DNA of 63,861 nucleotides, the filler included, from Octopus bimaculoides (Eukaryota): the NCBI RefSeq assembly GCF_001194135.2. It is 6 parts of 6 records of this genome, joined end to end, with 100 filler letters (N's around TTAATTAATTAA, not from the genome) between each part and the next. Parts side by side here need not be neighbours in the genome. Positions count along the whole stretch, not along the records: positions 6,925 to 23,798 come from NC_068990.1; positions 23,899 to 47,122 come from NC_068983.1; positions 47,223 to 60,659 come from NC_068982.1; positions 60,760 to 62,432 come from NC_068985.1; 2 more parts are not named here. One strand, written 5' to 3'. The notes under the pieces were generated by a model, which had not been told where the DNA came from, searched no databases, and saw nothing but the letters and a program-made list of their open reading frames with translations. The position numbers and the translations under genes are program-made. Shown here piece by piece: positions 14,837 to 62,197 of this stretch. How positions within the stretch are numbered: position 1 is the first letter of the stretch; every line of letters begins with the position of its first letter.

Positions 14837-15029
14837 CAGTTCTATATTTCTGAGATGAAGAATTATGTACATTATTTACATTATTTACATTTGACGGATA
14901 TTTGTCCTCATCTTGTTTGTTGTGAACACAACGTTTTGGCTGATATACTTTCCAGCCTTCATCAGGTGTCCTGGGGAAATTTCGAACCTGGGTTCTCATT
15001 CCTAAGGTATTTTTCCGTTGTTGTTGTTG

Positions 15030-15101
<72 letters not shown>

Positions 15102-15188
15102 TCACAGCTTGGAATCGAACTCGGAATCTTGAGGTTAGTAGCCCGCGCTCTTAACCACCACGCAATATGCCCGTGGGTGTATGGCGTA
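14837..15188 (-). mobile_element. Family E composite element: tRNA-like head, (AAT)n, hammerhead-bearing tail
   Basis: Head 15095-15172 with B box GTTCGATTCC (rc of 15111-15120). Tail 14837-15015 closely matches 37085-37240 and the reverse complement of 37425-37605. Confidence 0.85.
14925..14970 (-). ncRNA. Type I hammerhead ribozyme, probably inactivated (G12A)
   Basis: Minus strand: gacac-CTGATGA-a-ggctg/cagcc-AAA (instead of GAA)-ACGT-T-gtgtt. Confidence 0.7.
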
Positions 15189-15189
15189 T

Positions 15190-15570
15190 TGCCAAATACG
15201 ATCTCAGTACATCAAGTGTATTCCTGATCTCATTGGTTTCTCTGATGAGTTGCATTACAACATCAATGTTCTGATGGATCGATCTAGTTATTCATGACGA
15301 GAAATACAGTCAACCATTGAGAAAATCTATTCTGAGACGCAGCTGCCCTTCAACGTTCAGCAAAGAAATTTACCGAAACTGATTGATGTCCTTTGAGCTT
15401 TTTCTTTTCGGGTGTCTAAATTCTTTCAGCAGACCTCCATAGATCGGCAACGCTGTCCCTTTACCGTATCAATTTCAAAGATCTTCCAAAGGTTTCTTAG
15501 GAACTCTGGGCATCGCTTGCACAGGAAGTAGGGTAAAGCACCGAGTAAAGGCTAGGTTGATACCTTTGGG
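15190..15570 (-). mobile_element. R2/NeSL/HERO-type non-LTR retrotransposon RT fragment
   Basis: Broken minus frames read LPYFLCKRCPEFLRNLWKI, VADLWRSAE, KDINQFR*ISLLNVEG and VVMQLIRE, motifs I recognise from HERO-like RTs. Confidence 0.7.
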
Positions 15571-15698
15571 AAAATGCTGAAACGATTTCATGTGTGTAAA
15601 TAAACATACACACCCACACACGCTGACATGCACGCACACACACACACACTTACACACATATACACACACGTGTGTGTATATAGATATATTTGTGTGTG

Positions 15699-15739
<41 letters not shown>

Positions 15740-16186
15740 ATGCGATGGGTAAATTGTCACCATTTTATACCTTTTATTTCACGCACGTGCATTATTTGTT
15801 CTTGATTTTATCGACTACACAGTATAGTAGGGTCAGTTGGGCACAGTCAGTGAGAAAAACAGCATCATGACGCAATTTACTCTAACAGGAATTTGGAAAC
15901 GACGCGCCAGAGGGATAGAAGAATGAGGGAGGGGCGAGAAAAAAGAAAAGAGACAGTGAAGTGAAAGAGGAGGGAAGGTGAGAATGAAGAGAAAGCCAGG
16001 AAATGTGAGAGAGGGGGAACGAAAGAAAGAAGAGTGGAAAGAACGAAGTGTGAAAGGGCTGATAGAAAGAAGGAAAGAATGAAAGAATAACAGAGTCGTA
16101 CACAATGTATATATATATGTACTCCTAAGAAACCAAAGTGTACGTACGCCGCTACTCTTCTTTCTTTCGACGGAAGCTTAAATAGT

Positions 16187-16272
16187 AAACCGCGATAGGT
16201 GAACCGCGATAGGTGAACCGCGATAGGTGAACCGCGATAGGTGAACTGTCATGGGTGAACCGTGATATGGTG
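16187..16272. repeat. 14-bp minisatellite (GAACCGCGATAGGT) x4 plus two decayed units
   Basis: Tandem units are directly visible. Confidence 0.95.
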
Positions 16273-16390
16273 AGGGATCACTGCATATAGGGATGCGTGT
16301 TTGTGTGTGAATGACTTTGTATTCGTATTTGTTATTCATCCACACACACACCGTTTCACATCCACGTTTCACAGCCAATATTATTTTAAT

Positions 16391-16560
16391 TACGTCCCCG
16401 TAACCGAACGGTTCGGCGAAAGAGACCGGTAGAATAAATACCAGACTTTAACAAAAGAAACCAACTTAAGTATTATGGTCGATTTATTTCCCTCAACCCG
16501 TTTAAAGCAGTGCTTAAGCATGGGCGTAATCCAATTGCGTGACACAAGTAACGATATAAA
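16391..16560 (+). mobile_element. SINE family A 3' part
   Basis: tacgtccccgtaac...ggttcggcgaaagagaccggtagaataa...gcatgg matches 46287-46405. Confidence 0.7.
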
Positions 16561-16999
16561 GTAAGTAAAAAAAGAGTTTATCTTGTATGGTATTTGTTAT
16601 ATCTTTATTCATGTTTATTGTTTATATTCTCCATGCCACTGACCACTCTCAGCTATTTCTTTTTGTTCATTTTCGCTTAAATTAATGCAAATGACCTTAG
16701 ACCATTAGCGCAAATATGTCGTCTGCTGGATTCAAGGAAAGAAAACTGCTGTGATGGTAACATTTACTGAACCAACGAAACAAGAGAGTCCAAAAATGAT
16801 AGAATTAATTTATCAAATAAAGGCACATTAACAATAATCGATATAAAAACTTAGAAATATTGCATTTCTCAATTTCTCAGTGAGATTTATACAGTAGCAG
16901 CACGATAAAGTGATGGTTTGTTGCCAACTTAATGTGGCAGTCCCAGGAAAGGGAAGAATGCTACTGTTATAACGAAATTAAAGACACCACTTAAGAATT

Positions 17000-17330
17000 A
17001 TGGTTTAAAAGCTACCATAATGACATCAATTTCCTTATCTGGAATCCAACAGAGGAGATACATAAACAAAAATGCAGAAAACGTAATATAAAAGAAAATT
17101 GGAACCAACTTTAAAATTTGCATAAGGCGTTCTTCCCATATGATCCGTCCGCAACAAAAATCGTGCTCACATCATATCACTAAGGCGAACTGGTTTACCT
17201 CAATTGGTCTTGCTTCTCTTTAACATCATACCAAAAGATATAAAGGAAGGAAAAAAACCTCAAATGGTTCCTGGAGGAATTCTTTCAACAACTTCCAGAT
17301 AAATTGCCTACAAACGGATAGAAATTCTTC
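17000..17330 (+). mobile_element. Possible CR1/L2-group LINE 3' end, very degenerate
   Basis: LLFNIIPKDIK and, after a frameshift, LKWFLEEFFQQLPD resemble the FNxLPxxI...LDxFLxxxPD tail motif. Confidence 0.35.
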
Positions 17331-18080
17331 AAGCGATAACTGTTTACTCGAAAGGACTACGGTGCCCTGTGTATGACTGTAACGTGGGAACATGATTAAA
17401 TGTCTTCTCCAGATGGTGCTTCTAAGTTAGTTAGGGGTTGCGCCAATAACGAATGAAAACTGAACCTGCATATCTTAGTGTCAAAGTAGGAAAATAAAAA
17501 AAATAATAAAAGACTGTGATTCAGAAAAGAATTATGTGAAAAGAATAACGATAGCGATTCGCATGTTAGAAATAGAAGCATCTATTGTTCATCAAAAAGG
17601 TGGCGACAACTAAAACTAATCACCCGATCTCGGAGTCATTTCATCCAGCCCTCTAGTGATCTGCATAAACAGGTATGCTTATAACAACCAGTTATAGATA
17701 AACTGGTAACTGCGTGTTGTAGCTTTATGCAGTAATGAATCGACAGGGACTGATACAGAATACACCAAGAGCTCACCTTTAACTCATCTCGCCAAGCAGT
17801 ATACAGTAAACTTTTGAATTAGAATCTCAATTCCCAGTCCGCCTACATCTTCCTGTGAAGCATTGACCTGCTGATATTCAGGCTTGGCATCGACCACGAC
17901 TGTCTGAGCAGTCTGGGAGGTTCTGTTCAGGTCATTGACATCGTGAAGAAAAAATGATTACCGAGATAATAAATAACATTTAAAAATAAATGTACGTTTT
18001 AATCTTCAGTAAAGATTTTTATCGCAACAAAAGCAATCTAAAATGCGTTACTTAGCTTTGAGAATTGAATGGCATGTACG

Positions 18081-18293
18081 AAGGCGTTCAGCTGGCAGAA
18101 ACGTTAGCAATCCGGGCGAAATACTTGGCGGTATTTCGTCTGTCTTTACGTTCTGAGTTCAAATTCCGCCGAGGTCCACTTTGCTTTTCGGAGTCGATAA
18201 ATTAAGTTCCAGTTGCGTACTGGAGTCGATCTAATCGACTGGCTCCCTTCCACCGAAATTTCGGGCCTTGTGCCTAGAGTAGAAAAGATTATT
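18081..18293 (+). mobile_element. SINE family B (tRNA-derived)
   Basis: gctggcagaaacgttagc...gagttcaaattccgccgagg (B box)...gggccttgtgcctagagtagaaaagattatt; the head is also present at 48424. Confidence 0.8.
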
Positions 18294-18789
18294 TTGACTT
18301 CACTTTTCATCAAATGCCACCGGTCCAGATCATCGACATTACTCGGCAAATAAATAAATAAATAAATAAATAAATACCTACTCACCTACTTAAAAACGGA
18401 TGTTTTCCCAAATTTGAACACATGCCTAAAATCATCATGAAATAATATATGACAGAGAAATTCCATTCGAGTCGGAAGTTCCCTTGATTTATAACAGAGA
18501 ATATTCGCGAAAAGAGATTCAGAAGGAATGCAGTGATGAGCTCTCCTCTTCTATCTCTGTCTCACACAAATACGAATTAATCACACATAAGGATACCACA
18601 CACACACACACACACTTTCTCACTCAACACTTGCAGACGACACTGTATACACTTGGAATAAACACGTTGTCACAATTTCTCATTTAAAAATATCTTCGGA
18701 AAGTTAGTAAGCGGTTTCAAATACCATAGAAGGCACAGCATAACGTTTTTTTTTTTTTTTAAATGTTTCTCATTTAAATTCATAAAATA

Positions 18790-19590
18790 TTCATGTATTA
18801 TGCTCTATAAATCGTATTGTTGAATTTTGCGATGTTTGAAACCTATCTCTTGTCTCTGGGTTTTGCTGTCATAAATCAGTGTGCTAAGGACACAAGCTCT
18901 GTAGACTGCTACCTTGGTGCACACCGTTTATTTACAGTTCTCCAAAGACTTATGTTGTCAGCCTGTCTTCTGATAAGGCTGCGCTCCCAATACATCTGTT
19001 GATCTTAGACTCTAGAGAATTAATTATCTGTGATGGTGGAAGCTAGATATGTGAACTCGCAAACTCCTTCCGGTTCGCACTTGTTGATAGTGATGGTAAG
19101 GGAGTACTCAACATCTTGTCGCAGCATTTTTGTTATCTTCAGACTGATGGCCAATCAAAAGTCTTGACGAACTCTTGTGAAACTGTCCATCTGGCGAATG
19201 AGTTACTCCTCAGTTTCTTACCTGTGTTCCATCGTCAAGCAGCATGTTTTTGATGTATACCTTATTCGTGTTCGTCCGAAACAGACGGGACACTTTGCCG
19301 TCTGATTTTGTGAGAAGGTAAATGCCTTCTCGTTTGATGATCCAAAAGCATGCTTTAGCATGGCAGTGATGAAGATACTAAACAGGATGCTGGGAAAAGC
19401 ACACAACCCTGCTTCAATCCACAACAAATGCTGAAGGCTTCTGAATGAGAGTCAACAAACTGAACGATACCTTTCATGCCTGTGTGCAATGTCTGAACGA
19501 TCACGAGTGAACTCAGTGGGAATCTGATCTTGGCAACGACTTTGAAAAGACAGTCTCTACACACAAGATCGAAGGCCTTCGAGAGGTTAA
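18790..19590 (-). mobile_element. RTE-clade LINE RT fragment (degenerate)
   Basis: KAFDLVCRDCLFKV...LHTGMKGIVQF...GLKQGCVL, LFSIFITAMLKHAFG and FTYLASTI across broken frames. Confidence 0.85.
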
Positions 19591-19649
19591 AGAAAACGAT
19601 GGGGAATGGTTGGTTTTGCTCTCTCTATTTTTCTTGTAATTGCCGAATA

Positions 19650-21781: not shown

Positions 21782-22180
21782 TACTTATTTCAGTCATTGG
21801 ACCGCAGCCATGCTGTAGCACCGCCTTGAACGGTTCAGTCGAACAAATGGAATCCAGTTTTGTTTTGTCTTGTTTTTTTAAGTCTACCACGTACTCCAAC
21901 GGCGTCTTTTACCGAAGCGCTAATTTAAGGGGATATAAACAAACCAACGCTGATTGTCGAACAGTGGAGGGAGACAAGTGTAAACACAAAGACACACACA
22001 TACATATACACATACGAAGAGCTTCCTCATAGTTTCCGTCCATCAAATTCATTCACCAAGCATAGCTCGGTTCAGCGCTATCGTGAACGGCCCTTACCAA
22101 ACGTGCCGCGCGGTGGAACTGAAACCAAAATCACAAGGATTGCAAAGCGATCTTATTAACCACACGGCTATGCCTTCGCC
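21782..22180 (-). mobile_element. SINE family A, near full length, diverged
   Basis: Reverse complement follows the family A layout (head, CA microsatellite, tail ...gcatggctgcggtccaatgactgaaataagtaac). Confidence 0.8.
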
Positions 22181-22968: not shown

Positions 22969-23056
<88 letters not shown>

Positions 23057-24334: not shown

Positions 24335-24443
24335 CATATATATATATATAAATTTAGATTCAAGGTGAATATGGTACTTAAGTTTAGGCACCAGAATTTA
24401 GTATGGTATTATCCAAACAATTCCAAAAATAAGGTGATCAAAA

Positions 24444-24902
24444 ATCAAAATAAGCAACAAGGATATTCAAGGTTAGTGCAGTACGATCGTTTCATGCAGC
24501 CCCATTTATTTAAGCAACGTGAGCATTACATTAAATGTAAAATGCAGAGCAATCTTCAGTTGCACAAAGATACAGAAAATGTACTGAAATTTCATTTCAG
24601 TAGAAGGATTTATATCACTGTTGTAACTACATTTAAACAATTCAAGTGGGAAGGAAAAATATAAAAGTCAAAATGGTTCTTTTATATTCTTCCTTCCCAC
24701 TTGAATTGTTTAAATGTAGTTACAACAGTGATATAAATCCTTCTACTGAAATGAAATTTCAGTACATTTTCTGTATCGTTGTGCAGCTGAAGATTGCTCT
24801 GCATTTTACATTTAATGTAATACTCACATTGCTTAAATAAATGGAGTCGCATGAAACGATCGTACTGCAGTAACCTTGAATATCCTTGTTGTTTATTTTG
24901 AT
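24444..24902. repeat. Foldback: 224-bp inverted arms, 11-nt spacer
   Basis: 24444-24667 is the reverse complement of 24679-24902 with about 10 mismatches by eye. Confidence 0.95.
24782..24869 (+). ncRNA. Candidate type I hammerhead ribozyme (stem III ACGATCGT)
   Basis: tgcag-CTGAAGA-[long stem II region, tgc...gca]-GAA-ACGATCGT-A-ctgca. Stem II closure is imperfect. Confidence 0.7.
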
Positions 24903-24928
24903 CTTTTATATATATATATATATATACA

Positions 24929-25259: not shown

Positions 25260-25481
25260 AAGAAAGAAAGGGATAAAGAGACCAATGGCAAAGTTAGAAT
25301 TATATTTTATGGATAAAGTCTTACAGCTGTTTCAGGGAAAATCCAATGTATCCCTTCATCGGAGATGGTAATAGTAGAAGAATGAAGGGATACATTGGAT
25401 ATTCCCTAAAACAGCTGTAAGACTTTATCCATAAAATATAATTCGAACTATGCCATTGGTCTCTTTATCCTTTTCTTTCTT
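25260..25481. repeat. Foldback: 100-bp inverted arms with decayed hammerheads (stem III ACAGCTGT)
   Basis: 25260-25359 versus 25382-25481. The minus strand of 25319-25365 reads tct-CCGATGA-aggga...tccct-GAA-ACAGCTGT-A-aga. Confidence 0.88.
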
Positions 25482-26319: not shown

Positions 26320-26498
26320 ATTAAAAAGCAGCAAAAATATCACAAAAACTGTTACTCAGAGTTTCATGTTCCCGTTTGTTGGACAGTTTTGTTTAGAATG
26401 GAACAAAAATAAGGTTACAAGCAAAAATATACAATTAGTTTGATAGATATACATTCGAAAATGGTTTTGTTTCATTGGTTCTTTCAGCTAATGATCTT
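26320..26498 (-). repeat. Third partial copy of the 27-kb foldback family
   Basis: Matches 27545-27720 (aaaagcagc...ttactcaga...agctaatgatctt); cut by a gap. Confidence 0.9.
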
Positions 26499-26924: not shown

Positions 26925-28100
26925 TACATATATATGCATTTGTGTATATATTTATGTCTTGCTTATATATGTCTGTATATGTATGTAGCCTTGTACCTGC
27001 ATCAGTATGTTTAGTGTATATATGTATAGTATAGATGGTTTGGTATGTGTATATACTGCTACATGTATATGTTATCTAGCATGAAATTTTTTTTTTTTAA
27101 CAGATATGTCTTTTAATTTATTAATTGATCAATATTTTACAGCTAATTATTTACCCTGGGTATTCAGGCTTTGTCCTTCTTTATAAACTATATTTGATTT
27201 CAGGTTTGCTTTGATTTTTATAAAAATATGATTTTACACCACAGTTTGTTATTGCATGCAACCGTTTATTGAAAAGACCGTTAGGTGAAAAAACCAATGA
27301 CAGAAAACCATTCTCCAATGTGTATCTATCAAACTAATTGTATGTTATTGCATTTAACCTTATTTTTGTTCCATTCTAAACAAAACTATCTGATGAACGG
27401 GAATGTGAAACTCTGAGTAACGGTTTTTGTGATATTTTTGCTGCTTTTTAATAAAGCATATTACTCTACCTCTGGTATTCAAGTACAATTTTTCCACCTT
27501 GTCTCACATTTATGTGCTTACTCTGGTATATATATATATGCTTTATTTAAAAGCAGCAGAAATATCACAAAAACAATTACTCAGAACTTCCTGCTCCTTT
27601 TCGTCGGAGTTTTGTTTAGAATGGAACAATATAAGGTTATATGCATAAATATACAATTAGTTTGATAGATACACATTTGAAAATGATTTTGTTTCATTGG
27701 TTCTTTCAGCTAATGATCTTTTCAATGACTGGTTTTCATGAAATTACAATTCCATTTTAAAATCTTATAAAAACTGAAGAAAACCTTAACTCAAAAATAG
27801 CTTATGCAGAAGGAAAAAGACCTGAATACCCAGGGTGAATAATTAGTGGTAAAAAATAATAATAAATTTAAATAAATTAAAAGATATATCAATTTAAAAA
27901 AACTTTCACCCTAAAATACATATACATTTAGCAATACATACACATAAAAATAATCTATATATACGTATATACACTAACCATACAGGCATTGGTACATGAC
28001 TACATACATATACAAACAAATATAGGCAAAATGTATATATATATATTCTTCATGGTGGCATAAATGTATATATGCATGCATAAATATATACATATAAATA
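26925..28100. repeat. Large diverged foldback (clear arms about 27090-27460 and 27537-27900, looser extension beyond)
   Basis: Reverse-complement blocks such as ccctgggtattcagg, tgtgtatctatcaaactaattgta and ttgttccattctaaacaaaact. Confidence 0.85.
27382..27427 (+). ncRNA. Candidate type I hammerhead ribozyme (stem III ACTCTGAGT)
   Basis: aaaactat-CTGATGA-acgggaatgt-GAA-ACTCTGAGT-A-acggtttt. Confidence 0.7.
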
Positions 28101-28111
28101 TGTAGAATTAG

Positions 28112-29990
28112 CCACAGAGCATTTCGATTAACAATATAAGATGCCTTGCTTAAATCAACCAAGCAATGGTATAAGGCAAGATTCTGTTTGATGCACTTTT
28201 CCTGAAATTGTTTGATAGTAAAGATAGTATCAACTGAGCCCCAGGAGGAGCAAAAACTCTATTGAGACTCAGACACGATATCTGGAATTATGAAGGTATT
28301 TAAACGTTCTAACAGAATGCGGGCAAGTACCTTTCCAACTACAGACAAAAGCAAAATCCCACAAAAATTACCATACCAATCCTTTGGTCCCATTTTATAC
28401 AAAGAGAGACTAAAATGGCATCAATCCAGTCTTGAGGCACTTCCTCAGTTCTCCAACAGTGACAAATTAATATATATAAGAGTTCAAACATTTTGTCACA
28501 CCCATATTTCTTTCAACACCTCTTCACAAATTTCATCATCAACAGATGATGGTCTATTCAAAAGTGCAGAAAAATGTTCAACCCAGCACTTATGAATAGA
28601 AGCAGTGTCATTCAAAACCAAATGTCCATTTGCTGGTCTCACTGGTGATTTTGGACCTTAACATAAGAGTACAAACCCTTGGCATCATTTCTATCAGCTA
28701 CTTCTTGCACCCCTTTTGCTCTGTCATTCCACCAATCCTGTTTATTTTCCTTAGGCCAGTCTGTACTCTCCCTTTCAGCTTTCTGTAAGCTTCATTTGAG
28801 TTGGGAGTTCAAGAACTGAAAAAGAAGTGTATTGCCTAAGTTTTGTTTTTATAAAAGTAAGTCATGGATTTCTGGCGATTTGTCTGAAAACCAGTCATTG
28901 GACTTACACCATTTAACTCCCACTGAAGAGCTTGCAACCTGAAATACTTTTGTTTTGAAATTTTCCCATAGATTGTTTGGATCAAGGTTGATACTTTCTA
29001 TGGTGTAACATTTAACTTTTTGGGTACATTAGGACCAAACTGTCGACTTTAAGGCATTATCAAAAAATTAATTTTTCCATGCACTAGACGATGGTCAGTC
29101 CAGCTCTTTGCTCCTCTCATGGCCTGAACACTAGAAAAATCTTTCATATCACTTTCTGATCAAAATATAATCCTTAGATCTTGGGTGCATCCAGGTGGTT
29201 CTATATTTATTTTTTTTTTTGCTTGAACAGAGTATTGGTAATAACCAGATTATTCTCAGTACAAAACATCAAAAGAGCTACTCCATTTCTATTACATTTT
29301 CCAATCCCATGTCGGCATAAAACAGGCCATGAAACGTAGTCATTTCCAACGCTTGCGTTGGAATCTCCCAATATGACCAGCTTGTCAGAAATTGGTACTT
29401 TGATCAATAATTGTACTAGATCATCATGAAACTATCCTATAGTTTCATAAGAATGTGACATTGTTGGTGCATAAATATTGACAATGATAAGAAGCCTACC
29501 TTTTGTCGGTTTTTATACAGCATGACATGGTTTCTTCAGATATACCACTTGGAAATTCTGCAATGGAGGATACTGATTTCTTGAGAGCAAACCCAACACC
29601 AGATTCTCAATGCTGACTCTCAGGTAGGCCTCTCCAGAAGATTGTATATCCATAAGTAGGTTCATTTTGTTGACCCTCACCAGAATGATGAGTTTCAGAG
29701 AGCACAACTATATCAAGGGAATATTTCTGAAGCTCACGCGGAATAAGTGCATCTTATTGAAATTATTATCTAGAAGTATGAACACATTCCAACAGCCAAA
29801 ATTCAGAGGATATTTATTTTTTCTTCTTCTTGAAGATTGTTTGACCGCAGTGGTAGGATGATGACTGGGCTCTACCTGTGACACACTGGGATACGTGCCA
29901 AGCCAGACCTGTTCTCCTGACATTCCCAAGCCTGTTTTGCCATTTACTGAATCTTTTTGAGACATTTCAGAGGAAGTTGCTAGTGTATTT
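28112..29990 (-). mobile_element. RTE-clade LINE: APE to RT N-terminus, same family as 6070-6824
   Basis: FGCWNV, DKLVILGDSNASVG...GIGKCNRNG..LL.FCTENNLVITNTLF (APE). 28112-28310 aligns with 6624-6824. Confidence 0.9.
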
Positions 29991-31038: not shown

Positions 31039-31140
31039 TGACCTGAAGATTATTATTTTTGAATAGAATTGATTTTCGATAGTTTTAATCCATTTAAATT
31101 TCTTTCTATTTGAAAATTGGTTATGAAACACGTGTAGTCA
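31039..31140 (+). ncRNA. Candidate type I hammerhead in an AT-rich PLE-like pseudo-LTR (stem III ACACGTGT)
   Basis: tgac-CTGAAGA-[decayed stem II]-GAA-ACACGTGT-A-gtca. Confidence 0.65.
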
Positions 31141-31889: not shown

Positions 31890-31973
31890 TCATTACAACC
31901 GTTTCAAGCAACTCCTTTAACCGATTAATGAAAAACATTACATCATTGCAAAGAAACCGTTTTCATTAGATGA
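31890..31973 (-). ncRNA. Decayed type I hammerhead (G5A; stem III ACGGTTGT)
   Basis: Minus strand: tcat-CTAATGA-aaac...gctt-GAA-ACGGTTGT-A-atga. Confidence 0.5.
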
Positions 31974-37084: not shown

Positions 37085-37377
37085 TACAGTTCATTTTTAC
37101 ATTATTTACATTTCATGGATATTTGTCCTCATCTTGTTTGTTGTTAACACCTTTTGGCTGATATACCCTCCAGCCTTCATCAGGTGTCTTGGGGAAACTT
37201 TGAACCTGGGTTCTTATTCCTAAGGTATTTTCGATGTTATTATTATCATTATTATTATTATTATTCAGGTCACTGCCTGGAATCGAACTTGGAATCTTGG
37301 GGTTAGTAGCCCATGCTCTTAACCACTATGCCATATGCCCACGGGTATATGGCATAATAATAATAATACCAATAGTA

Positions 37378-37423: not shown

Positions 37424-37605
37424 CAACAACATCGAAGAATACCTTAGGAATGAGAACCCAGGTTCGAAATTTCCCCAAAACACCTGAAGAAGGCTGGAGG
37501 GTATATCAGCTGAAACGTTGTGTTAACAACAAGCAAGATGAGGACAAATAAACGTCGAATGTAAATAATGTACATAATTCCTCATCTCTTAAATATAGAA
37601 CTGTA
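37085..37605. mobile_element. Family E head-to-head inverted dimer
   Basis: Minus copy (tail 37085-37240, head 37263-37340), 14-bp palindromic junction, and plus copy with the head deleted (AAT run, tail 37425-37605). Confidence 0.88.
37479..37524 (+). ncRNA. Minimal type I hammerhead ribozyme, core intact (GUU cleavage site after 37519)
   Basis: aacac-CTGAAGA-a-ggctg[gagggtatat]cagct-GAA-ACGT-T-gtgtt: 5-bp stem I, 5-bp stem II, palindromic stem III. Confidence 0.85.
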
Positions 37606-39393
37606 TTCACAGTTGTTGGTCCCGAAACAGTAGAACGTCACTTGTACATAACTCACTTGCCTATTTGTAATCTGCACACAGACACATACATAATAATGCT
37701 GACACTAAACAGACAAAGGCTAAAGATGAAAAATTTTAGGTAAAACTGGAAATAACATACTGTAAACAGACTGTGTAAATAAACTTATACATTATCATTA
37801 CTTAGCTAGGATTCAAATAATATGAAATCAAAACTAGAGTCCAAGAATGATTGTGGTATGCTCTGGTCAAAAACCAAACTGACAAGAATTGTATCCTCAA
37901 CTTTGGGATTCACTTTTAAAAGTAGTTATTGAAAATCCATTAAGAGCTGCTTAAGCATTGTCGATTTACTAAGAGCTACTTGGATAACATCACAGTTGGT
38001 ATAAAAAGTGTTCTACAATGTTGGCAGGAAAACGAAAGATAAACAAAGTACTAACTACAAGCAACACTAGAAAATGATGAATCCACACTACTATGGAGCT
38101 GTGTTGTATGTACTGTTAGTGAGTTAAGTGTGAACAAATGAAACAACATTGTTAATGACCAATTAGTTGAAAAGGATCTTATTGCAAAAAATCTTAATTA
38201 CTTAAGATATGAATATTTTTTAATTATGAAATAAAAACCATTCTCTAATTTGAGAACCTTAAAACATTTTAGCATGTATTATTTTGGTTTTTAAGATTCC
38301 AGGTCATTGTTGACTTATGGCTACAATTGGTTCCAACTGACTGGTCATAAGTCGATTTGGTTGCAAGTCAGCCTGTAGGCTTACATAGCTTTATTTTATA
38401 TTCTTACATTCTTAAGGTACATTTTCAGGTAAAAGTCACACCCAACATTCTGTATTATACTATCATACTGGTGTTAGTCAAAAATTTTGGCATCCCGAGC
38501 AGTCATCTTATAAACAAATACGAGGTTGCCTCAATGTTTCCATGACAAGATATTCGTCAAACACTTGGGATAAACATAGCGGCAATTGAAAACCAAATCT
38601 AGGGTAAATGTTTGTTAGCTGGCATCATCTGTAAATGGGTTAATTTCTAAGAAATTAAAGTTATTAGATTTCAACTGGACTATATATTATTGCTGCCGGA
38701 AGCTGGCACACCAACTGTCGTAAGGTCAATCAGTCGTAAATCAGATAGGTCGTAAGTTGGCAGCAACCTCTACTGAGTTGTCAGTAACATCATGTTCTTA
38801 GGGGGACACTGCACATTTACATCCCAGCTCAAGTAAGATGCCCATCAGTATGTTTAATTTCTAGTGCATAAACTCCAAAGCCAGCATGTGGAAAAAACAT
38901 TGAGATATAGTGTCATTTCTGACTGAGTAAAAGGGGACTGACCAGTAAAAATGGGCCAAATCTGAAAATTTGTAAATAAAATTGCCTCATCTAAAACTTC
39001 ATTTTAGAAAAATTGTTTTCTTCTGTCAGTACAAATGATAATGGGTGAGAAGGAAATATATAAAAGGATTGTCAACAAAAATGCCATAATTTGCAATACA
39101 AATTCTAGTTCCAAGAATATATTGCAAACATGAAATGATCTTGTTGATAAAACTGTGTACAGGTACTCCATGTATCATTAGTTCAAATCATCAACTAATG
39201 TTTCAAGCAGAAAGCTATTTTTAGCAATGACTACCTGTGATAAATAAGAGCCAAATATTTTATGGCAAAAATTACTTGCAATAGATTGAGTCTTGTCCAG
39301 AAGTCTTTTCTTTTCATCATCATTCTCATCATCATTACAACCACCACCACCACCACCACCATCATATCATCCTCATCAACAACAACATCATTT

Positions 39394-39900
39394 AACATCC
39401 ATATTTCATGCTGGGAGAGGTTGACAGGAGTCACTTGCTTACTCACATTTAAGAGAGAGAGAGTGAAAATGATCTGTAGGAGCTGTGAATCCAGTCGTTT
39501 CTCAAGGTATGAAATGAGTAGAAGTTCCTTGGATAAAGGGACTAAGGTAGTGGGAGATTTTCAAGAGTTTATGGGGATAGTAAGAGTTGGGGGAATAGGA
39601 AGTAGGCAAAAATTTATTGGGCTGAAGGGCTGATATAAAGTGTGATAGATAACCAATGATGCATGAGCTGGGGAAGGTAAAGGGATGTCAAAGATAAATG
39701 GTGGGTAGAGCAGCAGGATAGTAATAGTGATTATAATGATGATACAGTCGATGGGGGGAGGCCAAGACAGAGATAACATATAGTTGGGTAGGATGTAGGA
39801 GTTGGGGGAGAGAGGTAGGTGTAGCGCATGAGGATTTGATAATTTGGTGGCAAAGAGAAGTGGAATGATCACAGTGACAGGTGAGTGAAGAGAACAATCA
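39394..39900 (-). mobile_element. L2/CR1-group LINE fragment (endonuclease end or linker)
   Basis: Pro/His/Ser-rich broken frames (HASLVIYHTLYQPFSP...TLVPLSKELLLISYLEKRLDS) of the kind seen in L2-group ORF2; clade call is tentative. Confidence 0.5.
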
Positions 39901-41272: not shown

Positions 41273-41709
41273 GCGTGAATGTATGCATGCATGTATGTGA
41301 GTGTTTGTGTTTCTTTGTTATGAAGTCAAAAGACAGTTGTAAACTAGTGTAATCACACAAGTGGAGTTGGTATGCTTCTTTTCAAATTTTCTGCCAAGGA
41401 TGTCTGACCATAGAAATATATTACCTTGTTTGAAAACAGGTGAGGGCTGGTTGCAGAAAATCTGCTTTAAGGAATTCCATTTTGACCCATGCAATCACAG
41501 AAAGGAGTAAAAACCTTGATCCTTATGATACAGTTTTAAGAATATTAACTATGATAGGTCACCTCATATTTATTTTCATGAATCATGAGAATAACTTGAA
41601 CTTGTACTCATCTTATTTGCATTGATGAAATGATGAGGATGATGATGATGATGACGACGACGATGACAACAATGACAACAACAACAACGACAACAATAAC
41701 GATGAGGAC

Positions 41710-42006
41710 AACATCCATATTTCATGCTGGGAGAGGTTGACAGGAGTCACTTGCTTACTCACATTTAAGAGAGAGAGAGTGAAAATGATCTGTAGGAGCT
41801 GTGAATCCAGTCGTTTCTCAAGGTATGAAATGAGTAGAAGTTCCTTGGATAAAGGGACTAAGGTAGTGGGAGATTTTCAAGAGTTTATGGGGATAGTAAG
41901 AGTTGGGGGAATAGGAAGTAGGCAAAAATTTATTGGGCTGAAGGGCTGATATAAAGTGTGATAGATAACCAATGATGCATGAGCTGGGGAAGGTAAAGGG
42001 ATGTCA
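41710..42006 (-). repeat. 297-bp copy of 39394-39690
   Basis: No differences seen by eye; same orientation as the first copy. Confidence 0.95.
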
Positions 42007-46427: not shown

Positions 46428-46769
46428 TATGATAAGGAAAAGGAAAAACATAACAAGATAATGAGAATGACAAGGATGTTGACAATGATGGTGACAATGA
46501 TGATAATCATAGTTGCTGTGCTAGTAGGGATGAAATAGCAAAAGAAAATTTCTAAAGTCATTTCTATTATCTATATCTAGTTATAATCAACAAAATATGA
46601 TGAAATGAGTACCAGCAAGTATTCATAACAGGGTGATGAGGCATGACGAAGAGGCAGGTTTGATTCCTTGCCTTTACATTTCTCCTATCAATGATTTCAC
46701 ATCTTAGTCAAAGCTTGATATATGATTGCTTCTACAAGGCTGAGTTATCCAAAAGGAGTAACAGAATAT

Positions 46770-47122
46770 TTTCTGTTGCCAGAAGGGAAGCTAGGCGACA
46801 GGTTTATTTAGCCAGAGGGGAGGCAGATAAGAAAAGATTTGCCAATGTTCTGTGCCGTGAGGACCAAAGACTTGAGGTATTTCGTGTCGCAAGACAGTGT
46901 AGGAGAGAGAATAGTGATGTAGTAGGAGAGAAATGTGTTCGCATGGATGATGGTACGCTTGCTCTAAATGAGGCTGCAAAGAAAGAGGTCTGGAGAAGCC
47001 ACTACGATAGATTGCTTAATAAAGAGAATGAATGGGAGAAAGAGAGTCTGCCGTATGTTGACCCAACAGAGGGACCAGCTATCCGAGTTGACAGTACATT
47101 GGTAGATAAAGCAATTAAGAGT
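46770..47122 (+). mobile_element. RTE LINE linker between endonuclease and RT
   Basis: ARREARRQVYLAR...VFRVARQCRRENSDVVGEKCVR...WRSHYDRLLNKENEW...GPAIRV; cut by a linker gap. Confidence 0.85.
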
Positions 47123-53940: not shown

Positions 53941-54177
53941 GCTGTTATTATTATCATTATCATATATACACACACACACACACANNNNNNNNNNNNNNNN
54001 NNNNNNNNNNNNNNNNNNNNNNNNNNNNNNNNNNNNNNNNNNNNNNNNNNNNNNNNNNNNNNNNNNNNNNNNNNNNNNNNNNNNNNNNNNNNNNNNNNNN
54101 NNNNNNNNNNNNNNNNNNNNNNNNNNNNNNNNNNNNNNNNATATATATATATATATATACATATATATAATAAATGG

Positions 54178-56461
54178 AATAGAGAATGTTCAAATCAGGT
54201 AAACCACAGTGAACACATATGTATACGGATTTAATTCAGATAGAAATTGTTCCCAAAACATATCTTGATATATTAAAAGTACATATAAAAATATAAATAT
54301 TAAAAATATATATCGACTTATAAATATATGAATATACCAACATAGTAATAATATAATGAAGTACAGGATTGTAGATAAAAACGTTTTTGTTTTTTTTAAG
54401 AAAAAATATGTAGTGAAGAGAAAATAATAGGTGTCGAAAAAATATTTTCAGTTACATATTAAAGAAAATATTCCTACGGCCGTTTCAGGGGTTCAATCCT
54501 CCGAGTAAAAAATGTAATCTTAAAATTCATTTTCAAAGAAAATCTTTAATCTCAATGTTATATTTGATACTAAGACAAAAATTGTGAATATTTTTTGGAT
54601 ATCACACTAAATTTAAACACCGAGTTATATTACCTTTACCGGAAACCATTATCAAGTATTACAAGGCGCCGTTAAACTCTAATCATCCTTAATTAACCCT
54701 CTATAGTATTATTACGGCTATCTCTATTAGGATCTCCAGCCTATCAGCAAACGAGGAGATCTTTAATGCACGTGCTCCATTTTATAATCAAGCCCTAAAA
54801 TCAAGCGGCTTTCATGATCATATTTTCTACATCCCTGATACCAGTCTCAAAATCAAATAAGCAGCTAATCTCACATCTGACATCAATCTTGAAATTACTG
54901 ACACGATTCCTTCCTTAAATTATAAAAATATAAGAAAACACTTTAACCATACCAAACTTCATAACCTTCATTTTAGTAACCGTAATAAATGTAGTCCCTC
55001 TATATCTGAGCACCCTAATGTGGTAACCCACTCTAAATCTAGAAAAAGAGAAATTATTTGGTCCCCCACCATTTTCTATCAGTATCATAAATTTACCTAA
55101 ACTGTTCTTTAAGATCCTGAAATTAAAATTTCCTAAGCACCACAAATATTATCTCATATTTAACAAACACTCTATAAAGCTATCTTTGGGATCTATAATT
55201 GCATCCATAAATAGAAGTAAACTCCAGCTTCAAATGACTAAAAGCTTAGATCACCATGAGGTACACCATGAGGTACACCATAAAGTCCAAGTAAAATCAA
55301 TAAAACAAAAAAGTAAGTAAATCTAAATCTAAACGCAATCAATCCCAACTAAGCATAGATTAACCCGATACAACTTTAATAAATGTGAGTAAAATTGAAG
55401 ATAAGAATGCAAAAACTTGTAATTATGTCTGCTCGCTGAATTTTGTTTACGAAAGAATGTAAATTATAAATGCAGTGTGTTAAATGATAAACATCAGTTA
55501 AGAGTATACATAGGAAGCACTATAGATGTTAAAAGACGATATTAAACACTTTGAAATTCCTTCAGTAAACTAAAATATAAAAACCCGACGGCACAGGTTA
55601 GATACATATATGATTTAAAATTGCAGAACATCATTTTTACATTATTTTGGTTTATTATAGATGAGCACCCCCTTACAACAGGATTATGGTCCATTGTTGA
55701 ATGTGCATAAAAGAATCATATACAATCCTCCGCCTGTGCAATCCTACCATATTAAACAAGCTTTCTGATGATACTCATTTGTGTAACCACATATATTACT
55801 CAACATTCATGAGACTTTTTAAAATCTGAACGTACTCAACAATAGCCTTACTAAGTTACGCCGCACGACTTCACACCATATTACCTATAACACGATATCG
55901 CCAATATAAATATGAATTACTAAGTAATGCAATTTTTACTCACATCAGCCCTCATATAGACTTCGATCATTTGCATAAAAATATAAATATATCTGTTCTT
56001 CCATAAAAGTTTCCAGTTACCTTATACCTTAGCAGTGAACTGAATGCATTTCTACTGTAAACATCACTTTTTCCCTGATGAAGGAGACGTTCTCTGAAAA
56101 TGAAATTTAAGATTCATTTCTTTACTCAGAGGATTGAAACGGCCGTAGGAAATTTTATTATGTAACCTAAAATATTTTTTCGACGCCTATTATTTTCTTT
56201 TCACTATATATTTTTTTCTTTTTTAAAAAACGTTTTTATCTGCAATCCTGTACTTCATTATATTATTACTATGTTTGTATATTCATATATTTATATGTCC
56301 ATATATATTTTTAACATTCATATATTTTTATATTTTTATATGTATTTTGATATGTATTTTTAATATATCAATATATGTTTTTGGGACAATTTTTATCTGA
56401 ACTAAATCCATAGACATGTGTTCACTGTGGTTTACCTGATTTGAACTTTCTTCATTCTATT
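54178..56461 (+). mobile_element. 5'-truncated Penelope-like element with inverted 5' pseudo-LTR
   Basis: RT thumb (LDITLNLNT, NSNHP, SANEEIFNARAPFYNQAL), linker (RKREIIW, FPKHHKYYLIFNK) and GIY-YIG (NVNYKCSV...VYIGST..KRRY) at 54545-55780. 54178-54540 is the reverse complement of 56085-56461. Confidence 0.92.
56070..56152 (+). ncRNA. Type I hammerhead at the start of the PLE pseudo-LTR (stem III ACGGCCGT), stem II damaged
   Basis: tttcc-CTGATGA-aggag...-GAA-ACGGCCGT-A-ggaaa. The inverted copy (54470-54494) retains the missing cccct stem II strand. Confidence 0.8.
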
Positions 56462-57756: not shown

Positions 57757-57885
57757 TTGCCTCCCGTGCCGGTGGCACGTAAAAAGCAGCCACTTCACTT
57801 TCGGAGTGGTTGACGTTAGGTAGGGCATCCAGCTGTAGTAACTTTGCCAGATCAGATCGGAGCCTGGTGCAGCTCACTGGCATTT
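57757..57885 (+). mobile_element. SINE-like repeat fragment
   Basis: gcctcccgtgccggtggcacgtaaaaagca...cgttagg.agggcatccagctgtag resembles a widespread invertebrate SINE domain; family not assigned. Confidence 0.5.
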
Positions 57886-58098
57886 GTGTGCGCGCGTGTG
57901 CCTGTGTGCGCGTATTCACTGGACATATGATTGATTACCCTGCATATCTGTATACAGTAATGTATGCATATTTATATAGATACATTCAAGTGTATGTAAC
58001 CCCTTTTACTACTGCATGCTCCCCATTCTCGAACCTGCACACCAAGTGCGGAAATGCTTCCAATCGCTTAAATCAGACAAGGTAACTGGCTCTGACAA

Positions 58099-58177
<79 letters not shown>

Positions 58178-58839
58178 ATCTCTTCTTAGTTGCATAGTGA
58201 TCACAAGTTCTGCTGCCACAGAGCCTGCCCCACTAGAGTCCTACTTTCTGTCTCTCACAATTGGAAGTTTGGTTTAGACATGTTCGGTAAAAGCAATGTT
58301 TGTTGCTCGTATCAAATCTTCAACTGTGTCTAGCATGCACATCACCAATCAAAACATCTCGCTTTCGAGCTACACCTAGCTCTCATTTCCTGGATTGGCA
58401 CATTCCCTTCAGATAGCACCATCACATCACATTCTGATGGTACTCTTTCTGCCTCACTTTCAACCAACTCTATGTTACTCCGTGTTTTAGTTCATCCACC
58501 ATTCTATACCTTCTATGCATCAGTGATCTGCTTGTCACCAAAGCTAACAACATTCACTCTTATGCGATGATACGATCGACATTCATCCATAACTTTCCTC
58601 TACTCTGCATCATCCCTACGTAACCTAAACACTACACGATAAACTTGCATGGACTTTATAAACGGAGACCTTGAGATATGCTTCAGTGGAGCCATGTTAA
58701 TCTTGTGACACAAAATAAATTAAGCTCTGCTTATACAGAGAAAACCTCACCGAACCATACTCTCTCTAAACACGAGCCGCCCTGACAGCCGCGTCGCAGG
58801 CCAGGCTTCTCAATCATATAATATCTCTTCTGGGGAAAG

Positions 58840-59300
58840 CACATGCTTATCATTGCAAAGGGCACATCCCAAAGACCGGCTTCTTTATTCACAGCCCGAA
58901 CATTTTTCAGCCTATATAAGCTGCCAGCATTCAACAAGGCCTGAAAGAACACTACTCTCCAAATTTGAGAAAAAGCTGCTGCTACACAAAGGGACATCCT
59001 AAACCTGCATGCAACGGCCAGTCAGTGGATACATACACTCCATTCTCTTACTTAAGCGTGTTTTCTTCCCGCTCTGTCGTTTTTACTGTCTTTTGTAATG
59101 GCCCCCGTCCCACAGAACTGGTTGGTCCCTTACCTTCACCAGCCAGGCACACCGATCTACTCGTCTCTCCTCTACTCGTCACCCATGTTATGTCCAAGCC
59201 ACGCATTAGCCAATGTGTCTATATTTTTTTCTCTTCCCAGAACATCGTCTTTTAGAATTTTGTTCCTACTCATATCATATCTTTCCTAACAACAACATGC
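58840..59300 (+). mobile_element. CR1-clade LINE 3' end
   Basis: SVVFTVFCNG...LPSPARH.RSTRLSSTRHPCYVQ and FLFPEH/LEFCSYS pieces follow the CR1 tail consensus. Confidence 0.65.
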
Positions 59301-60289
59301 TTACTGGTTTGGAAAGTTATGGGTATTGTCCGATCGTCCAAAGGCAGAAATTGTATGAGAGAAAGTGTGTGTGTGTTTGTGTTTGTGTGTGGTGGGGGGT
59401 ACACTATTACGTGCGTTTGTGTGATGATGTTTCTAGGAATTGATATATGTTTGTATAAATGCAATACTGGAGAATTTATATATCTCGATTAACTCATTCA
59501 GTATATAGAATGATACTTCACCACATTTTGCTTCCCTTCCTTAGTTTATTAAACGTTAATAGAATGGTAATTAAAACTTTCCATTAATGCCATTAAAACT
59601 TTTCAACAGCGCTCGTAAAGTATTCTCGAAAACTTTCCAATAACTTTTAAACGTTTATTAATCATGATGTTGGATCAATCTATCTTCATTGAATCGGCTA
59701 ATTTTCGAAACAATGGGCAGTTTTACGGATCAGTGGTTCTAACAATTCGAAATATTAGTTCATCGGTCGTCTTCTGTTTATTCAAACACACCACGCTTCG
59801 ATCTGTTGCCAATTAATGTATTTTCCCAATGGTTAAATTGCACATTCCCTAACTGACACAATAACCAATTATCCTGAGAATTTATTCGTAATTAACATAA
59901 ACAATTTTATCTCTCAATCATTTATTCTCAACCATCCAATTTTCTAGGATTTATGTAACAGACACACTAACATTTTCTCCTAATATAGTTTTTTTGAGGG
60001 CTTTGTTTTATATTTTTATGCTGTATTGTTTGGCGTTTACAAAGAGGATGTCCATGTGCTAAATTTCTTAAGAATAGTTTGAAAATAATAGGCAATTATG
60101 CGAAGTAGTATGAAATATTTTCTTCTCCATCCTACTTCATCTTTATCTTACTCTCGTGATCTTCACTCTCTCCCTCTCACTCTCTCTTTCCCCTCTCTTT
60201 CTTTCTCTCTCTCATACACACACTATATATGTATATATACTTGGAATGGATACGTGGCGTTCAATTAAATAACATATATATATATATAT

Positions 60290-60612
60290 GTGGATACAGG
60301 ACGTCACCAACAATAAACAATATGAAATACGAAAACAAATGAATTAAATACGCAAATAACGAGAGAAAAAATGAAAAGCGTAACAAGTAATACACAGAAT
60401 AAAAGAACGACCCTTCATCAGCTGTCGGTTGTCTATCTACTCTCCATTGTTCGAAATAGATAGTATATAGACAGCTGACAACTGATGAAGGGTCGTTCTT
60501 TTGTATTCTGTGTATTGTCTTGTTTTCCATTTTTTTCTCTCGTTATTTACGTATTTAACTCATTTGGTTTCGTATTTTATGCTGTTTACTGTTGGTGACG
60601 TCCTGTACCCAT
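60290..60612. repeat. Foldback: about 145-bp inverted arms, about 35-nt spacer
   Basis: acaggacgtcaccaaca...gaacgacccttcatcag versus ctgatgaagggtcgttc...tgttggtgacgtcctgt. Confidence 0.92.
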
Positions 60613-60615
60613 ATA

Positions 60616-60659
<44 letters not shown>

Positions 60660-60872
60660 NNNNNNNNNNNNNNNNNNNNNNNNNNNNNNNNNNNNNNNNN
60701 NNNTTAATTAATTAANNNNNNNNNNNNNNNNNNNNNNNNNNNNNNNNNNNNNNNNNNNNATATATATATATGTATATATAATTTATTAATAAGGGTAGAA
60801 ATTGATATTATTCAATTAAAACCAGTGGTCCAGCATATTAAAAAGATCCCAATATTAAAATTATATTACATT

Positions 60873-61448
60873 CAAAAATAAGAGGAATGAGCAGCAAAAG
60901 TGGACTCCTATATGCTAGAAATAGATGCCGAATCATCTAACCACGAAAAATATCTTCTCAGTAAAAATTTAGCGACACAACAGACTGTAAAAGGGCAAGA
61001 CAAATGAAAAAATACTAAATACCCTTATTAATAAATTTTAAATAGTGATGTTCTCAAACCGGTAAATTAGCTGCAAAAATTTATTTCCGGACTTAGCGCG
61101 CCAGATTGAAGACATTTGAAGGGATACACTGAATGTAATTTGTAGAACTCTACAGTGCTCCCTTTCGGGTGGACGTCTTGTGTCTAGTTCTGGAAATTAT
61201 ATTTTATAAATCGACAGACTACGCTGATGATCCTGCAGATATTTACTTATGTAAATTGTAACAAGTGAAACCATGGTACGTAGGTTAATCATTTTTTTTT
61301 ATTTAGTATTTTTTAATTTGTCTTGGTCTTTTACAGTCTGTTGTGTCGCTAAATTTTTACTGAGAAGATATTTTTCGTGGTTAGATGATTCGGCATCTAT
61401 TTCTAGCATATAGGAGTCCACTTTTGCTAGTCATTACTCTTATTTTTG
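60873..61448. mobile_element. PLE-like pseudo-LTR inverted pair (149-bp arms)
   Basis: 60873-61021 is the reverse complement of 61300-61448 with few mismatches; a hammerhead lies just before the right arm. Confidence 0.88.
61219..61283 (+). ncRNA. Type I hammerhead ribozyme, core intact (stem III ACCATGGT, GUA site)
   Basis: ctacg-CTGATGA-t-cctg...atttac[ttat]gtaaat...caag-t-GAA-ACCATGGT-A-cgtag. Confidence 0.82.
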
Positions 61449-61628
61449 TATATATATATATATATATGCATATTTGCATTGTTTTACCCAATGGCCAACA
61501 TCTCTCGTGATCGAAATAGGGAGTTGGATCAGCGTCAAATGAAGTCTTTTTCTCAAGTACACAACTCCCCACCCCCAATCAGAGAATCGATATAGCGGTA
61601 GGTAAATGTATGCCCACATAATAAATGT

Positions 61629-62197
61629 AAGGATAAGAAAATTAGACAGATCATATATATATAAAGTATATTAAATACATGAAATATAAAAAATGTATAT
61701 ATATACATATATGCATATATACAAAGATCCAATTCACACAGAAAACAAATAATATAAAGAATTAAAGAAGTGGAGGAAAAGTATTAAAAATCCAACAGGT
61801 GTTTCTGGGGTACGGCTGTCCGTAGTGATGTTTGTAGATTGATTATATCCTAGGATGAGATGAGTCTCCATCTTCAGGGAAGAGATTCTACATTCGAGAT
61901 GTTAAAGGAGAGAAGTTCAAAGATCTTTGAATTTCTATCCTTTAACATCTCAAATGTAAGATCTCTTCCCCGAAGGAGGCTCGTCTCATTCTGCGACGAA
62001 ATCAATCCTCAAATATTACTACGGGCTGCCGAACCACCAGAAACAGCTGTTGGATCTGTAATACATTTCGTCCACCCCTTTATTCCACTACATTATTTGT
62101 ACTTTGTTTAACTTAGACCTTTTTATATGTATACATATATACATTTTTCGTATTTCATCAATTTAATATACTTCATATGTCTAATTTGCTTATCCCT
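61629..62197. repeat. Loopless foldback centred on TTCAAAGATCTTTGAA (61916-61931) with a hammerhead in each arm
   Basis: Arms of about 280-290 bp, diverged. Left arm minus strand: tcc-CTGAAGA-tggag...cccca-GAA-ACACCTGT-T-gga. Right arm: CCGAAGG...GAA-ACAGCTGT-T-gga. Confidence 0.85.

What the first reader, a model, noticed from the sequence alone, without database searches (positions are those of the whole stretch)
14925..62055. At least eight unrelated hammerhead families in 64 kb, each with a different stem III palindrome
Seen: stem III is ACGT (14.9, 37.5 kb), ACGATCGT (24.8), ACAGCTGT (25.3, 61.8-62.0), ACTCTGAGT (27.4), ACACGTGT (31.1), ACGGTTGT (31.9), ACGGCCGT (56.1) and ACCATGGT (61.2). 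Each has its own covarying stem I. Established: palindromic stem III allows minimal hammerheads to fold as dimers. Inference: the family-specific palindrome could act as a self-recognition code so that only RNAs of the same family trans-activate each other. The density suggests a very large genomic hammerhead complement.
Basis: partly seen in the sequence, partly recalled or inferred. Interest (0 to 1): 0.75.

Follow-up and report, generated by a model that had tools for sequence, protein, structure and literature searches.

The report
Penelope retroelement hammerheads sharing palindromes
The window holds real hammerhead-ribozyme motifs from nine repeat families, likely all tail ends of Penelope-type jumping genes and their non-coding passengers; the palindromes that are predicted to pair two copies are reused between families, so they are not a private family code, and the main oddity is an unusually long side arm.

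Summary
The motifs are real: 5 strict type I hammerheads against 0.075 in shuffles. The window holds 17 copies of 9 multicopy families, most copies decayed. Two families are tied to Penelope-like element (PLE) coding sequence: 56.1 (Hydra-type ORF remnant in the window) and 14.9/37.5 (Penelope/Poseidon-type endonuclease). The rest look like non-coding PLE-type ends. Genome-wide patterns give about 29,850 matches against 2,016 in controls, so the complement is large, but this packed window is about 8-fold denser than average. The code idea fails as stated: nine families use seven palindromes; 60 of 378 cluster pairs share one (24 expected if uniform); palindromes also switch within families. 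Palindromicity itself is selected (34 of 60). A dimer would pair stem I across partners too, and stem I plus palindrome is nearly family-specific (1 of 72), but with no sign of selection against cross-talk. Palindromic stems III and many families per genome are published. Not found in what I could read: 36-78-nt stem II arms and a tRNA-like segment in one PLE tail; this scan noted both earlier on other DNA. Cleavage is untested.

The parts
14925..14970 (-). Minimal hammerhead, ACGT family; core damaged (AAAA for GAAA)
15099..15172 (-). tRNA-like segment with A- and B-box-like motifs upstream of the 14.9 hammerhead, followed by an (AAT)n spacer
   Evidence: ARAGORN at relaxed threshold calls tRNA-Ser; default finds none in 8 of 8 family loci
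24437..24667 (-). Inverted arm of the 24.8 family with a hammerhead (core 24559, H17 24482), first stem I pair broken
24782..24869 (+). Intact hammerhead, 59-nt stem II, ACGATCGT; element ends in (TA)n near 24907
25312..25385 (-). Hammerhead, 25.3 family, ACAGCTGT, core CCGATGA in this copy
25382..25429 (+). Inverted partial copy of the 25.3 family (core incomplete)
26330..26403 (-). Decayed copy of the 27.4 family
27383..27426 (+). Hammerhead, 10-nt stem II, 9-nt stem III ACTCTGAGT, one stem I mismatch
27555..27626 (-). Decayed copy of the 27.4 family
31039..31140 (+). Intact hammerhead, 75-nt stem II (78 in the family), ACACGTGT
31890..31973 (-). Decayed hammerhead, 57-nt stem II, related to the 24.8 family
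37130..37206 (-). Decayed inverted copy of the ACGT family; a tRNA-like segment follows at 37268-37332 (-)
37479..37524 (+). Intact minimal hammerhead, ACGT family
54401..54540 (-). Inverted, 5'-truncated terminal piece of the 56.1 element (3' half of the hammerhead only)
54592..55760 (+). Broken PLE ORF remnant: RT thumb (54592-54848), linker, cysteine motif and GIY-YIG-type endonuclease pieces (about 55412-55760); stops and frameshifts
   Evidence: tblastn to PLE peptides from the same genome, best E about 2e-9; motif places
56070..56152 (+). Hammerhead in the 3' end of that PLE, ACGGCCGT; this copy lacks 8-9 nt at the base of stem II
61219..61283 (+). Intact hammerhead, 36-nt stem II, ACCATGGT; family unit about 521 nt, non-coding
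61773..61900 (-). Hammerhead of the 61.8 family, 63-nt stem II, stem III mismatch in this copy
61947..62072 (+). Head-to-head partner of 61.8, core decayed, ACAGCTGT intact

Best explanation
These are type I hammerhead motifs carried in the 3' terminal repeats of several Penelope-like retroelement families and, likely, of their non-coding derivatives; each is predicted to cut only when two copies of the same element pair, and the palindrome is a structural need of that pairing, not a family code. Shown: the motifs, their multicopy families, their place 3' of PLE coding sequence in two window families, head-to-head truncated insertions, and selection for self-complementarity. Inferred from published in vitro work on other species: an 8-9-nt stem III is too weak as a monomer hairpin, so the two hammerheads of one pLTR-ORF-pLTR transcript swap strands; copy A's core uses copy B's cleavage site, which pairs both stem III and stem I across partners, and cleavage would trim the retrotransposition RNA. 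Because only symmetry is required, any palindrome works; families drift between palindromes through G-U intermediates and reuse a few of them. Family specificity of stem I plus stem III is then a by-product of divergence. Most genomic copies are solitary or inverted, decaying, and likely inactive.
For: 5 strict hits against 0.075. All 7 families searched directly in the genome return at least 41 matches, with 78-2799 first-look candidates for them (25.3 and 31.9 were not searched directly but have 15 and 8 copies among fetched loci). Window 54.4-56.4 kb is an inverted piece, a broken ORF and a sense hammerhead; 9 of 23 copies of this family have PLE protein similarity upstream on the same strand. 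Three ACGT-family loci continue upstream into a GIY-YIG-type ORF ending at a fixed distance. A near-complete PLE (L190) has 309-bp direct repeats, each with a hammerhead motif. Same-family neighbours: 52 head-to-head, 4 direct, 4 tail-to-tail of 60, the PLE insertion pattern described in PMC8557442. Where the pattern left the inner four bases free, 34 of 60 sampled matches are perfect palindromes against 7.6% by chance. Sharing: 60 of 378 cluster pairs against 23.6 if uniform. Switching within a cluster: ACGATCGT with ACGTACGT, ACGATCGT with ACGGCCGT, ACCTAGGT with ACCATGGT, with ACGTGCGT-type wobble forms.
Against: No cleavage was measured. RNA reads from a related species show no sharp ends at the predicted cut of the ACGT family (unstranded-looking library, many host transcripts). 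For 24.8, 25.3, 31.1, 31.9 and 61.2 no convincing upstream PLE ORF was found, and for 27.4 and 61.8 only weak hits in 2 of 34 and 1 of 32 copies, so their PLE link rests on insertion structure and hammerhead type. Pfam gave no hit for the Hydra-type or Poseidon-type peptides; clade names rest on motifs, with no tree. Direct pairs are rare, so most loci could only dimerise in trans. Clusters include related subfamilies, which inflates sharing. Published min-HHR activity is low, and 8 of 9 Xenopus dimers did not cut (bioRxiv 2026.07.22.740005).
Confidence: 0.8

Rival explanations
1. Composite address under selection: stem I plus the palindrome form a symmetric duplex of about 14-22 bp that has been diversified so that co-resident families do not activate each other in trans.
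For: Among the nine window families only 1 of 72 ordered pairs is cross-compatible (25.3 core on 61.8 site); palindrome plus stem I was unique for all but one pair of 40 clusters; both stems change in a compensated way between subfamilies.
Against: Palindromes collide more than uniform choice predicts, and cross-compatible pairs number 19 against 10.6 (3 bp) and 14 against 5.1 (4 bp) in permutations; low cross-talk is expected from any divergent short helices; the cis dimer needs no code.
Confidence: 0.1
2. The 8-9-nt stem III families with long stem II cut as monomers: 2-3 bp of stem III is enough once the long arm docks on stem I or binds protein, and the palindrome is only the trace of a hairpin.
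For: 27.4 can form 3 bp with a 3-nt loop; a 2-bp stem with tetraloop is called more stable in axolotl HHR_Amex2 (PMC7229834 passage); long arms fold better than shuffles (family z -2.0 to -6.7).
Against: The central bases, which would be loop in a monomer, are themselves complementary in 34 of 60 samples; isolated monomer hairpins have positive energy.
Confidence: 0.12
3. The motifs no longer cut; they are kept as folded RNA signals for the element's reverse transcriptase, or merely ride along.
For: Naiads proliferate without canonical hammerheads and the authors raise parasitism of PLEs by hammerheads (PMC8557442 passage); position 10.1-11.1 is often mismatched here; no read ends at the cut site.
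Against: Family majority sequences keep the full core in 8 of 9 families (27.4 shows CCGACGA) together with UH and symmetric stems, which a pure binding site would not need.
Confidence: 0.15
4. Chance matches in AT-rich DNA.
For: A loose descriptor gives 5.55 hits per shuffle.
Against: Strict 5 against 0.075; genome patterns 10-18 times their reversed controls; coherent family majority structures.
Confidence: 0.01

Closest known systems
Hammerheads of Hydra-clade PLEs, including Hydra-1_Obim (Craig et al. 2021, PMC8557442; passages and supplement Files S1, S2 seen)
   Same: 8-10-nt self-complementary stem III, different among families of one species; unpaired or U-U pair at the base of stem II; (TA)n targets; Hydra-2_aMil has the same stem I and the same ACTC-N-GAGT stem III as the 27.4 family; DKT and CxCX5C motifs in the linked ORFs.
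   Different: The listed Hydra hammerheads have short stems II (about 10-26 nt with loop); five window families have 57-78 nt, and matches with 39-69 nt outnumber those with 8-38 nt in this genome (12,318 against 6,953).
Minimal hammerheads of metazoan PLE terminal repeats (Cervera and de la Pena 2014, PMC4209133; main text parts 1-2 of 4 and the supplement read)
   Same: The ACGT family fits exactly: extra base after A9, G-C closing pair, 4-nt palindrome; several consensus families per genome, thousands of mostly single copies, inverted neighbours 100-700 bp apart, dimer model; Aedes families differ by compensated palindrome changes.
   Different: Their descriptor caps stem II at 7 bp plus a 10-nt loop and stem III at 4 nt, so most families here fall outside it; no cephalopod in their list; no tRNA-like segment described.
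Dimeric PLE hammerheads of Lunse, Weinberg and Breaker (not held; seen only as title and through review passages in PMC6765202)
   Same: Palindromic short stem III, cleavage as dimers.
   Different: Cannot say; the paper may already cover long stems II or mixed dimers.
Metazoan non-LTR retrozymes (PMC7229834 passages; bioRxiv 10.64898/2026.07.22.740005 parts 1-3 of 5)
   Same: Non-coding hammerhead repeats proposed to derive from PLE ends; the 61.2 family is a 521-nt unit with a short terminal repeat in L334.
   Different: No tandem arrays were seen for the window families; neighbours are head-to-head (52 of 60).
Schistosoma Sm-alpha SINE-like elements (figure-legend passage in PMC6765202)
   Same: Promoter followed by a hammerhead, as in the ACGT family.
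   Different: Here the tRNA-like segment lies inside the 3' end of a coding PLE (3 loci) and copies are dispersed and often inverted.

Membership tests
Type I hammerhead ribozyme | CUGANGA, GAAA and UH in type I order with stems I-III | tested here: met
   5 window copies strict; 8 of 9 family majority sequences have the full core, 27.4 has CCGACGA
Type I hammerhead ribozyme | G10.1-C11.1 pair closing stem II | tested here: inconclusive
   Met in the ACGT family after the extra base; first and last stem II bases are G-C in only 7 of 40 clusters and mismatched in many; the same is listed for Hydra PLEs
Type I hammerhead ribozyme | Self-cleavage after UH | not testable with these tools
   No sharp RNA ends in three raw-read runs of a related species; uninformative library
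PLE-associated dimeric hammerhead | Self-complementary stem III too short for a stable monomer | tested here: met
   34 of 60 perfect palindromes; energies
PLE-associated dimeric hammerhead | Located in the terminal repeat 3' of a PLE RT/GIY-YIG ORF | tested here: inconclusive
   Met for 56.1 and 14.9/37.5 and for a non-window family (L173, L190); weak for 27.4 and 61.8; not found for 24.8, 25.3, 31.1, 31.9, 61.2
Endonuclease-bearing PLE insertions | 5' truncation with inverted copy next to the terminal repeat | tested here: met
   52 of 60 same-family neighbours head-to-head; variable 5' extents
Hydra-clade PLE (56.1 family) | DKT, CxCX5C linker, C-terminal endonuclease without CCHH | tested here: met
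   Motifs read in L173/L190 peptides and 56.1-family copies against the text of PMC8557442; DKT itself lies outside the window remnant
Hydra-clade PLE (56.1 family) | RT phylogeny with reference Hydra elements | not tested
   No tree built
Penelope/Poseidon-clade PLE (ACGT family) | C-terminal GIY-YIG with two internal cysteines and no upstream finger | tested here: inconclusive
   Seen in a 139-aa fragment; no Pfam hit; RT not recovered
Non-LTR retrozyme | Head-to-tail tandem units each with a hammerhead | tested here: not met
   4 direct pairs of 60, none a tandem array
Non-LTR retrozyme | Circular RNA | not tested
   Only the ACGT family was laid on reads

The most novel reading that the evidence does not exclude
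Tens of co-resident Penelope-type families use stem I plus the stem III palindrome as a selected, family-restricted pairing address, with the 36-78-nt stem II arm as a second family tag read by the cognate protein, so that a ribozyme fires only with its own kind and non-coding passengers must match their master's address.
Probability: 0.08. Interest if true: 0.7.

Novelty: new variant of a known kind. Interest (0 to 1): 0.3.

Why it matters
The system is known: PLE hammerheads with palindromic stem III, many families per genome. What this genome adds is a large natural library (roughly 28,000 pattern matches above control) with long stem II arms that published descriptors would miss, and natural pairs that share a palindrome but differ in stem I, or the reverse. 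These make the still-open question of what PLE hammerheads do, and whether they act in cis, in trans or alone, easy to test with unaltered sequences. If an address under selection were real it would be an RNA-level self-recognition system among transposons, but the data here lean against it.

Tried and rejected
Rfam scan: no hammerhead model matched among the rows shown. The repeat finder was swamped by microsatellites and N runs. No long ORF near most motifs. Insertions starting at the cut site: none at +1 among fetched copies; 4 ACGT-family and 3 24.8-family ends fall at -9 to -2, a post hoc cluster that alignment ends at mutated CpGs or internal deletions could make, so not used; DNA contigs show no top loose end there. 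No RNA holder on record was listed for the stretch; raw reads of a related species cover the element on both strands, 77-78% run on into unlike sequence, no sharp ends; summed contig depth was not used as copy number. Naiad link considered because of the 'half core' note in PMC8557442: the linked ORFs have a C-terminal endonuclease, so rejected for 56.1 and 14.9/37.5. First reading of the ACGT family as a plain tRNA-headed SINE was revised when three loci ran on into an ORF. Short tblastn hits from two peptides that translate other repeats were dropped before counting. Literature searches for a palindrome code or long arms: searches found no such statement in listings; only the papers named were opened; two key papers (Lunse et al.; Arkhipova et al. 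2017) are not held, and bioRxiv supplements were not seen.
Full report
Setting. The window is six joined stretches from a 2.34-Gb, microsatellite-rich animal genome. An octopus is likely; this is inference from genome make-up and from earlier scan notes, not a test. The stretches with hammerheads lie on contigs C3, C2 and C5; the stretch holding 14.9 was not placed.

Is it real? A strict type I descriptor finds 5 sites against 0.075 in 40 local dinucleotide shuffles, a slightly relaxed one 6 against 0.1, a loose one 17 against 5.55. Seven direct genome searches each returned at least 41 matches. Aligning copies from the fetched loci gives a coherent hammerhead for all nine families, with the full core in eight. 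The window holds 17 copies, two of them partial; five pass the strict test, the rest are decayed. Three genome-wide patterns count 6,953, 12,318 and 10,579 matches against 708, 686 and 622 for the reversed patterns; overlaps between patterns were not removed and the patterns do not demand stem I. In the first 30 matches of each 8-nt pattern, 34 of 60 have a perfect palindrome, 46 with G-U, and 36 have at least 3 bp of stem I (chance 7.6%, 15%, 5.8%). The window has 6 pattern matches where 0.77 are expected (P 1.5e-4), and 200 kb around the third stretch has 7 hits, 4 of them inside that 23-kb stretch. So the complement is large but the window overstates it about 8-fold.

What they belong to. 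At 54.4-56.4 kb the window shows an inverted terminal piece, a broken ORF with RT thumb, linker and endonuclease pieces, and the sense hammerhead at 56075; 9 of 23 family copies have PLE protein similarity upstream. The related peptides carry DKT and CxCX5C and lack the paired cysteines inside the endonuclease, the Hydra-clade marks given in PMC8557442; no tree was built and Pfam has no hit for them. A near-complete element of this group (L190) has 309-bp direct repeats, each with a hammerhead motif. The ACGT family continues upstream in three loci into an endonuclease with two internal cysteines, Penelope/Poseidon-like by motif (no Pfam hit). Between its stop codon and the hammerhead sits a tRNA-like segment; 21 of 46 copies begin within 13 to 6 nt before its A box and 3 extend well upstream (arms of one inverted insertion were not merged), which suggests a fixed start and a SINE-like short unit. 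The other families share hundreds of non-coding bases upstream; 61.2 is a unit of about 521 nt. Same-family neighbours are head-to-head in 52 of 60 cases, the PLE signature. Their PLE link is inferred.

The code. Nine families use seven palindromes. In 187 motifs forming 46 clusters, the 28 clusters with a perfect AC..GT 8-mer use nine palindromes, one of them nine times; 60 of 378 pairs share, against 23.6 under uniform use (clusters include related subfamilies and the patterns fixed the outer bases). Single clusters carry two perfect palindromes and wobble forms between them. In a type I dimer each core uses the partner's cleavage site, so stem I also pairs across partners (follows from the topology drawn for dimers in PMC4209133). 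With both stems, only 1 of 72 ordered window pairs is compatible, so families would mostly ignore each other, but sharers are compatible more often than permuted labels (19 against 10.6; 14 against 5.1). There is no sign of selection for separation.

Mechanism. Shown: structure, symmetry under selection, position. Predicted: 8-9-nt stems III form duplexes of -8 to -14 kcal/mol and unstable monomer hairpins. Inferred from PMC4209133 and the review PMC6765202: two copies on one transcript pair and cut, trimming the element RNA. Not shown: cleavage; RNA reads give no sharp ends and insertions do not start at the cut site. One earlier scan note reports a pile-up at the cut site in another genome; I did not see that here.

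Against what is known. Several families per genome, thousands of copies, palindromic stem III and dimer cleavage are in PMC4209133; 8-10-nt palindromes that differ among families, U-U at the base of stem II and an octopus Hydra element are in File S2 of PMC8557442. The long arms (family z -2.0 to -6.7; 13 of 30 sampled long arms below -2) lie outside the published descriptor and the Hydra list, and the tRNA-like segment was not found in searches; the main dimer paper could not be read. Earlier notes of this scan describe both on other DNA; they are unchecked and I count only what I tested.

Verdict. Real, mostly known biology with a long-arm variant; the palindrome code is not supported. Interest 0.3.

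Noticed in passing
window 15099-15172 (-), 37268-37332 (-); L204, L212, L206: A tRNA-like segment lies about 55 nt after the stop codon of a Penelope/Poseidon-type endonuclease; 21 of 46 copies start at its 5' edge; this family makes up most of the first 100 of 10,579 ACGT-type matches.
   Followed up: partly
L147, L158, L160: Hammerheads with 6- and 10-nt palindromes (AGTACT, ACGCGT, AGTACGTACT) lie within 0.2-0.9 kb of Neptune-like endonuclease ends.
   Followed up: no
L334, L335 (61.2 family): Non-coding 521-nt unit with a short terminal direct repeat, retrozyme-like.
   Followed up: partly
window 27369-27442 family: Family majority core reads CCGACGA, with stem I and stem III like coral Hydra-2_aMil; the family carries over 1.2 kb of microsatellite-rich non-coding sequence upstream.
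   Followed up: partly
window 4219-4650 (+), 5483-5764 (+), about 6348-6824 (-), 46664-47122 (+), 27974-28258 (-): ORF fragments that look like LINE endonuclease and reverse transcriptase pieces (by eye; the Pfam call on them failed).
   Followed up: no
window 24614-24732: Long perfect hairpin formed by the centre of the head-to-head 24.5/24.8 insertion; gives sub-threshold microRNA matches in Rfam.
   Followed up: partly
window 39244-39633 and 41629-41949: Two near-identical translated stretches about 2.3 kb apart, a local duplication or repeat.
   Followed up: no
window 2568-2745: 80-bp tandem repeat of about two copies, GC-rich for this window.
   Followed up: no
L221 5282 and 8905 (-): Two 25.3-family hammerheads in direct orientation 3.6 kb apart with a PLE RT fragment between them on the opposite strand; unexplained.
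   Followed up: no
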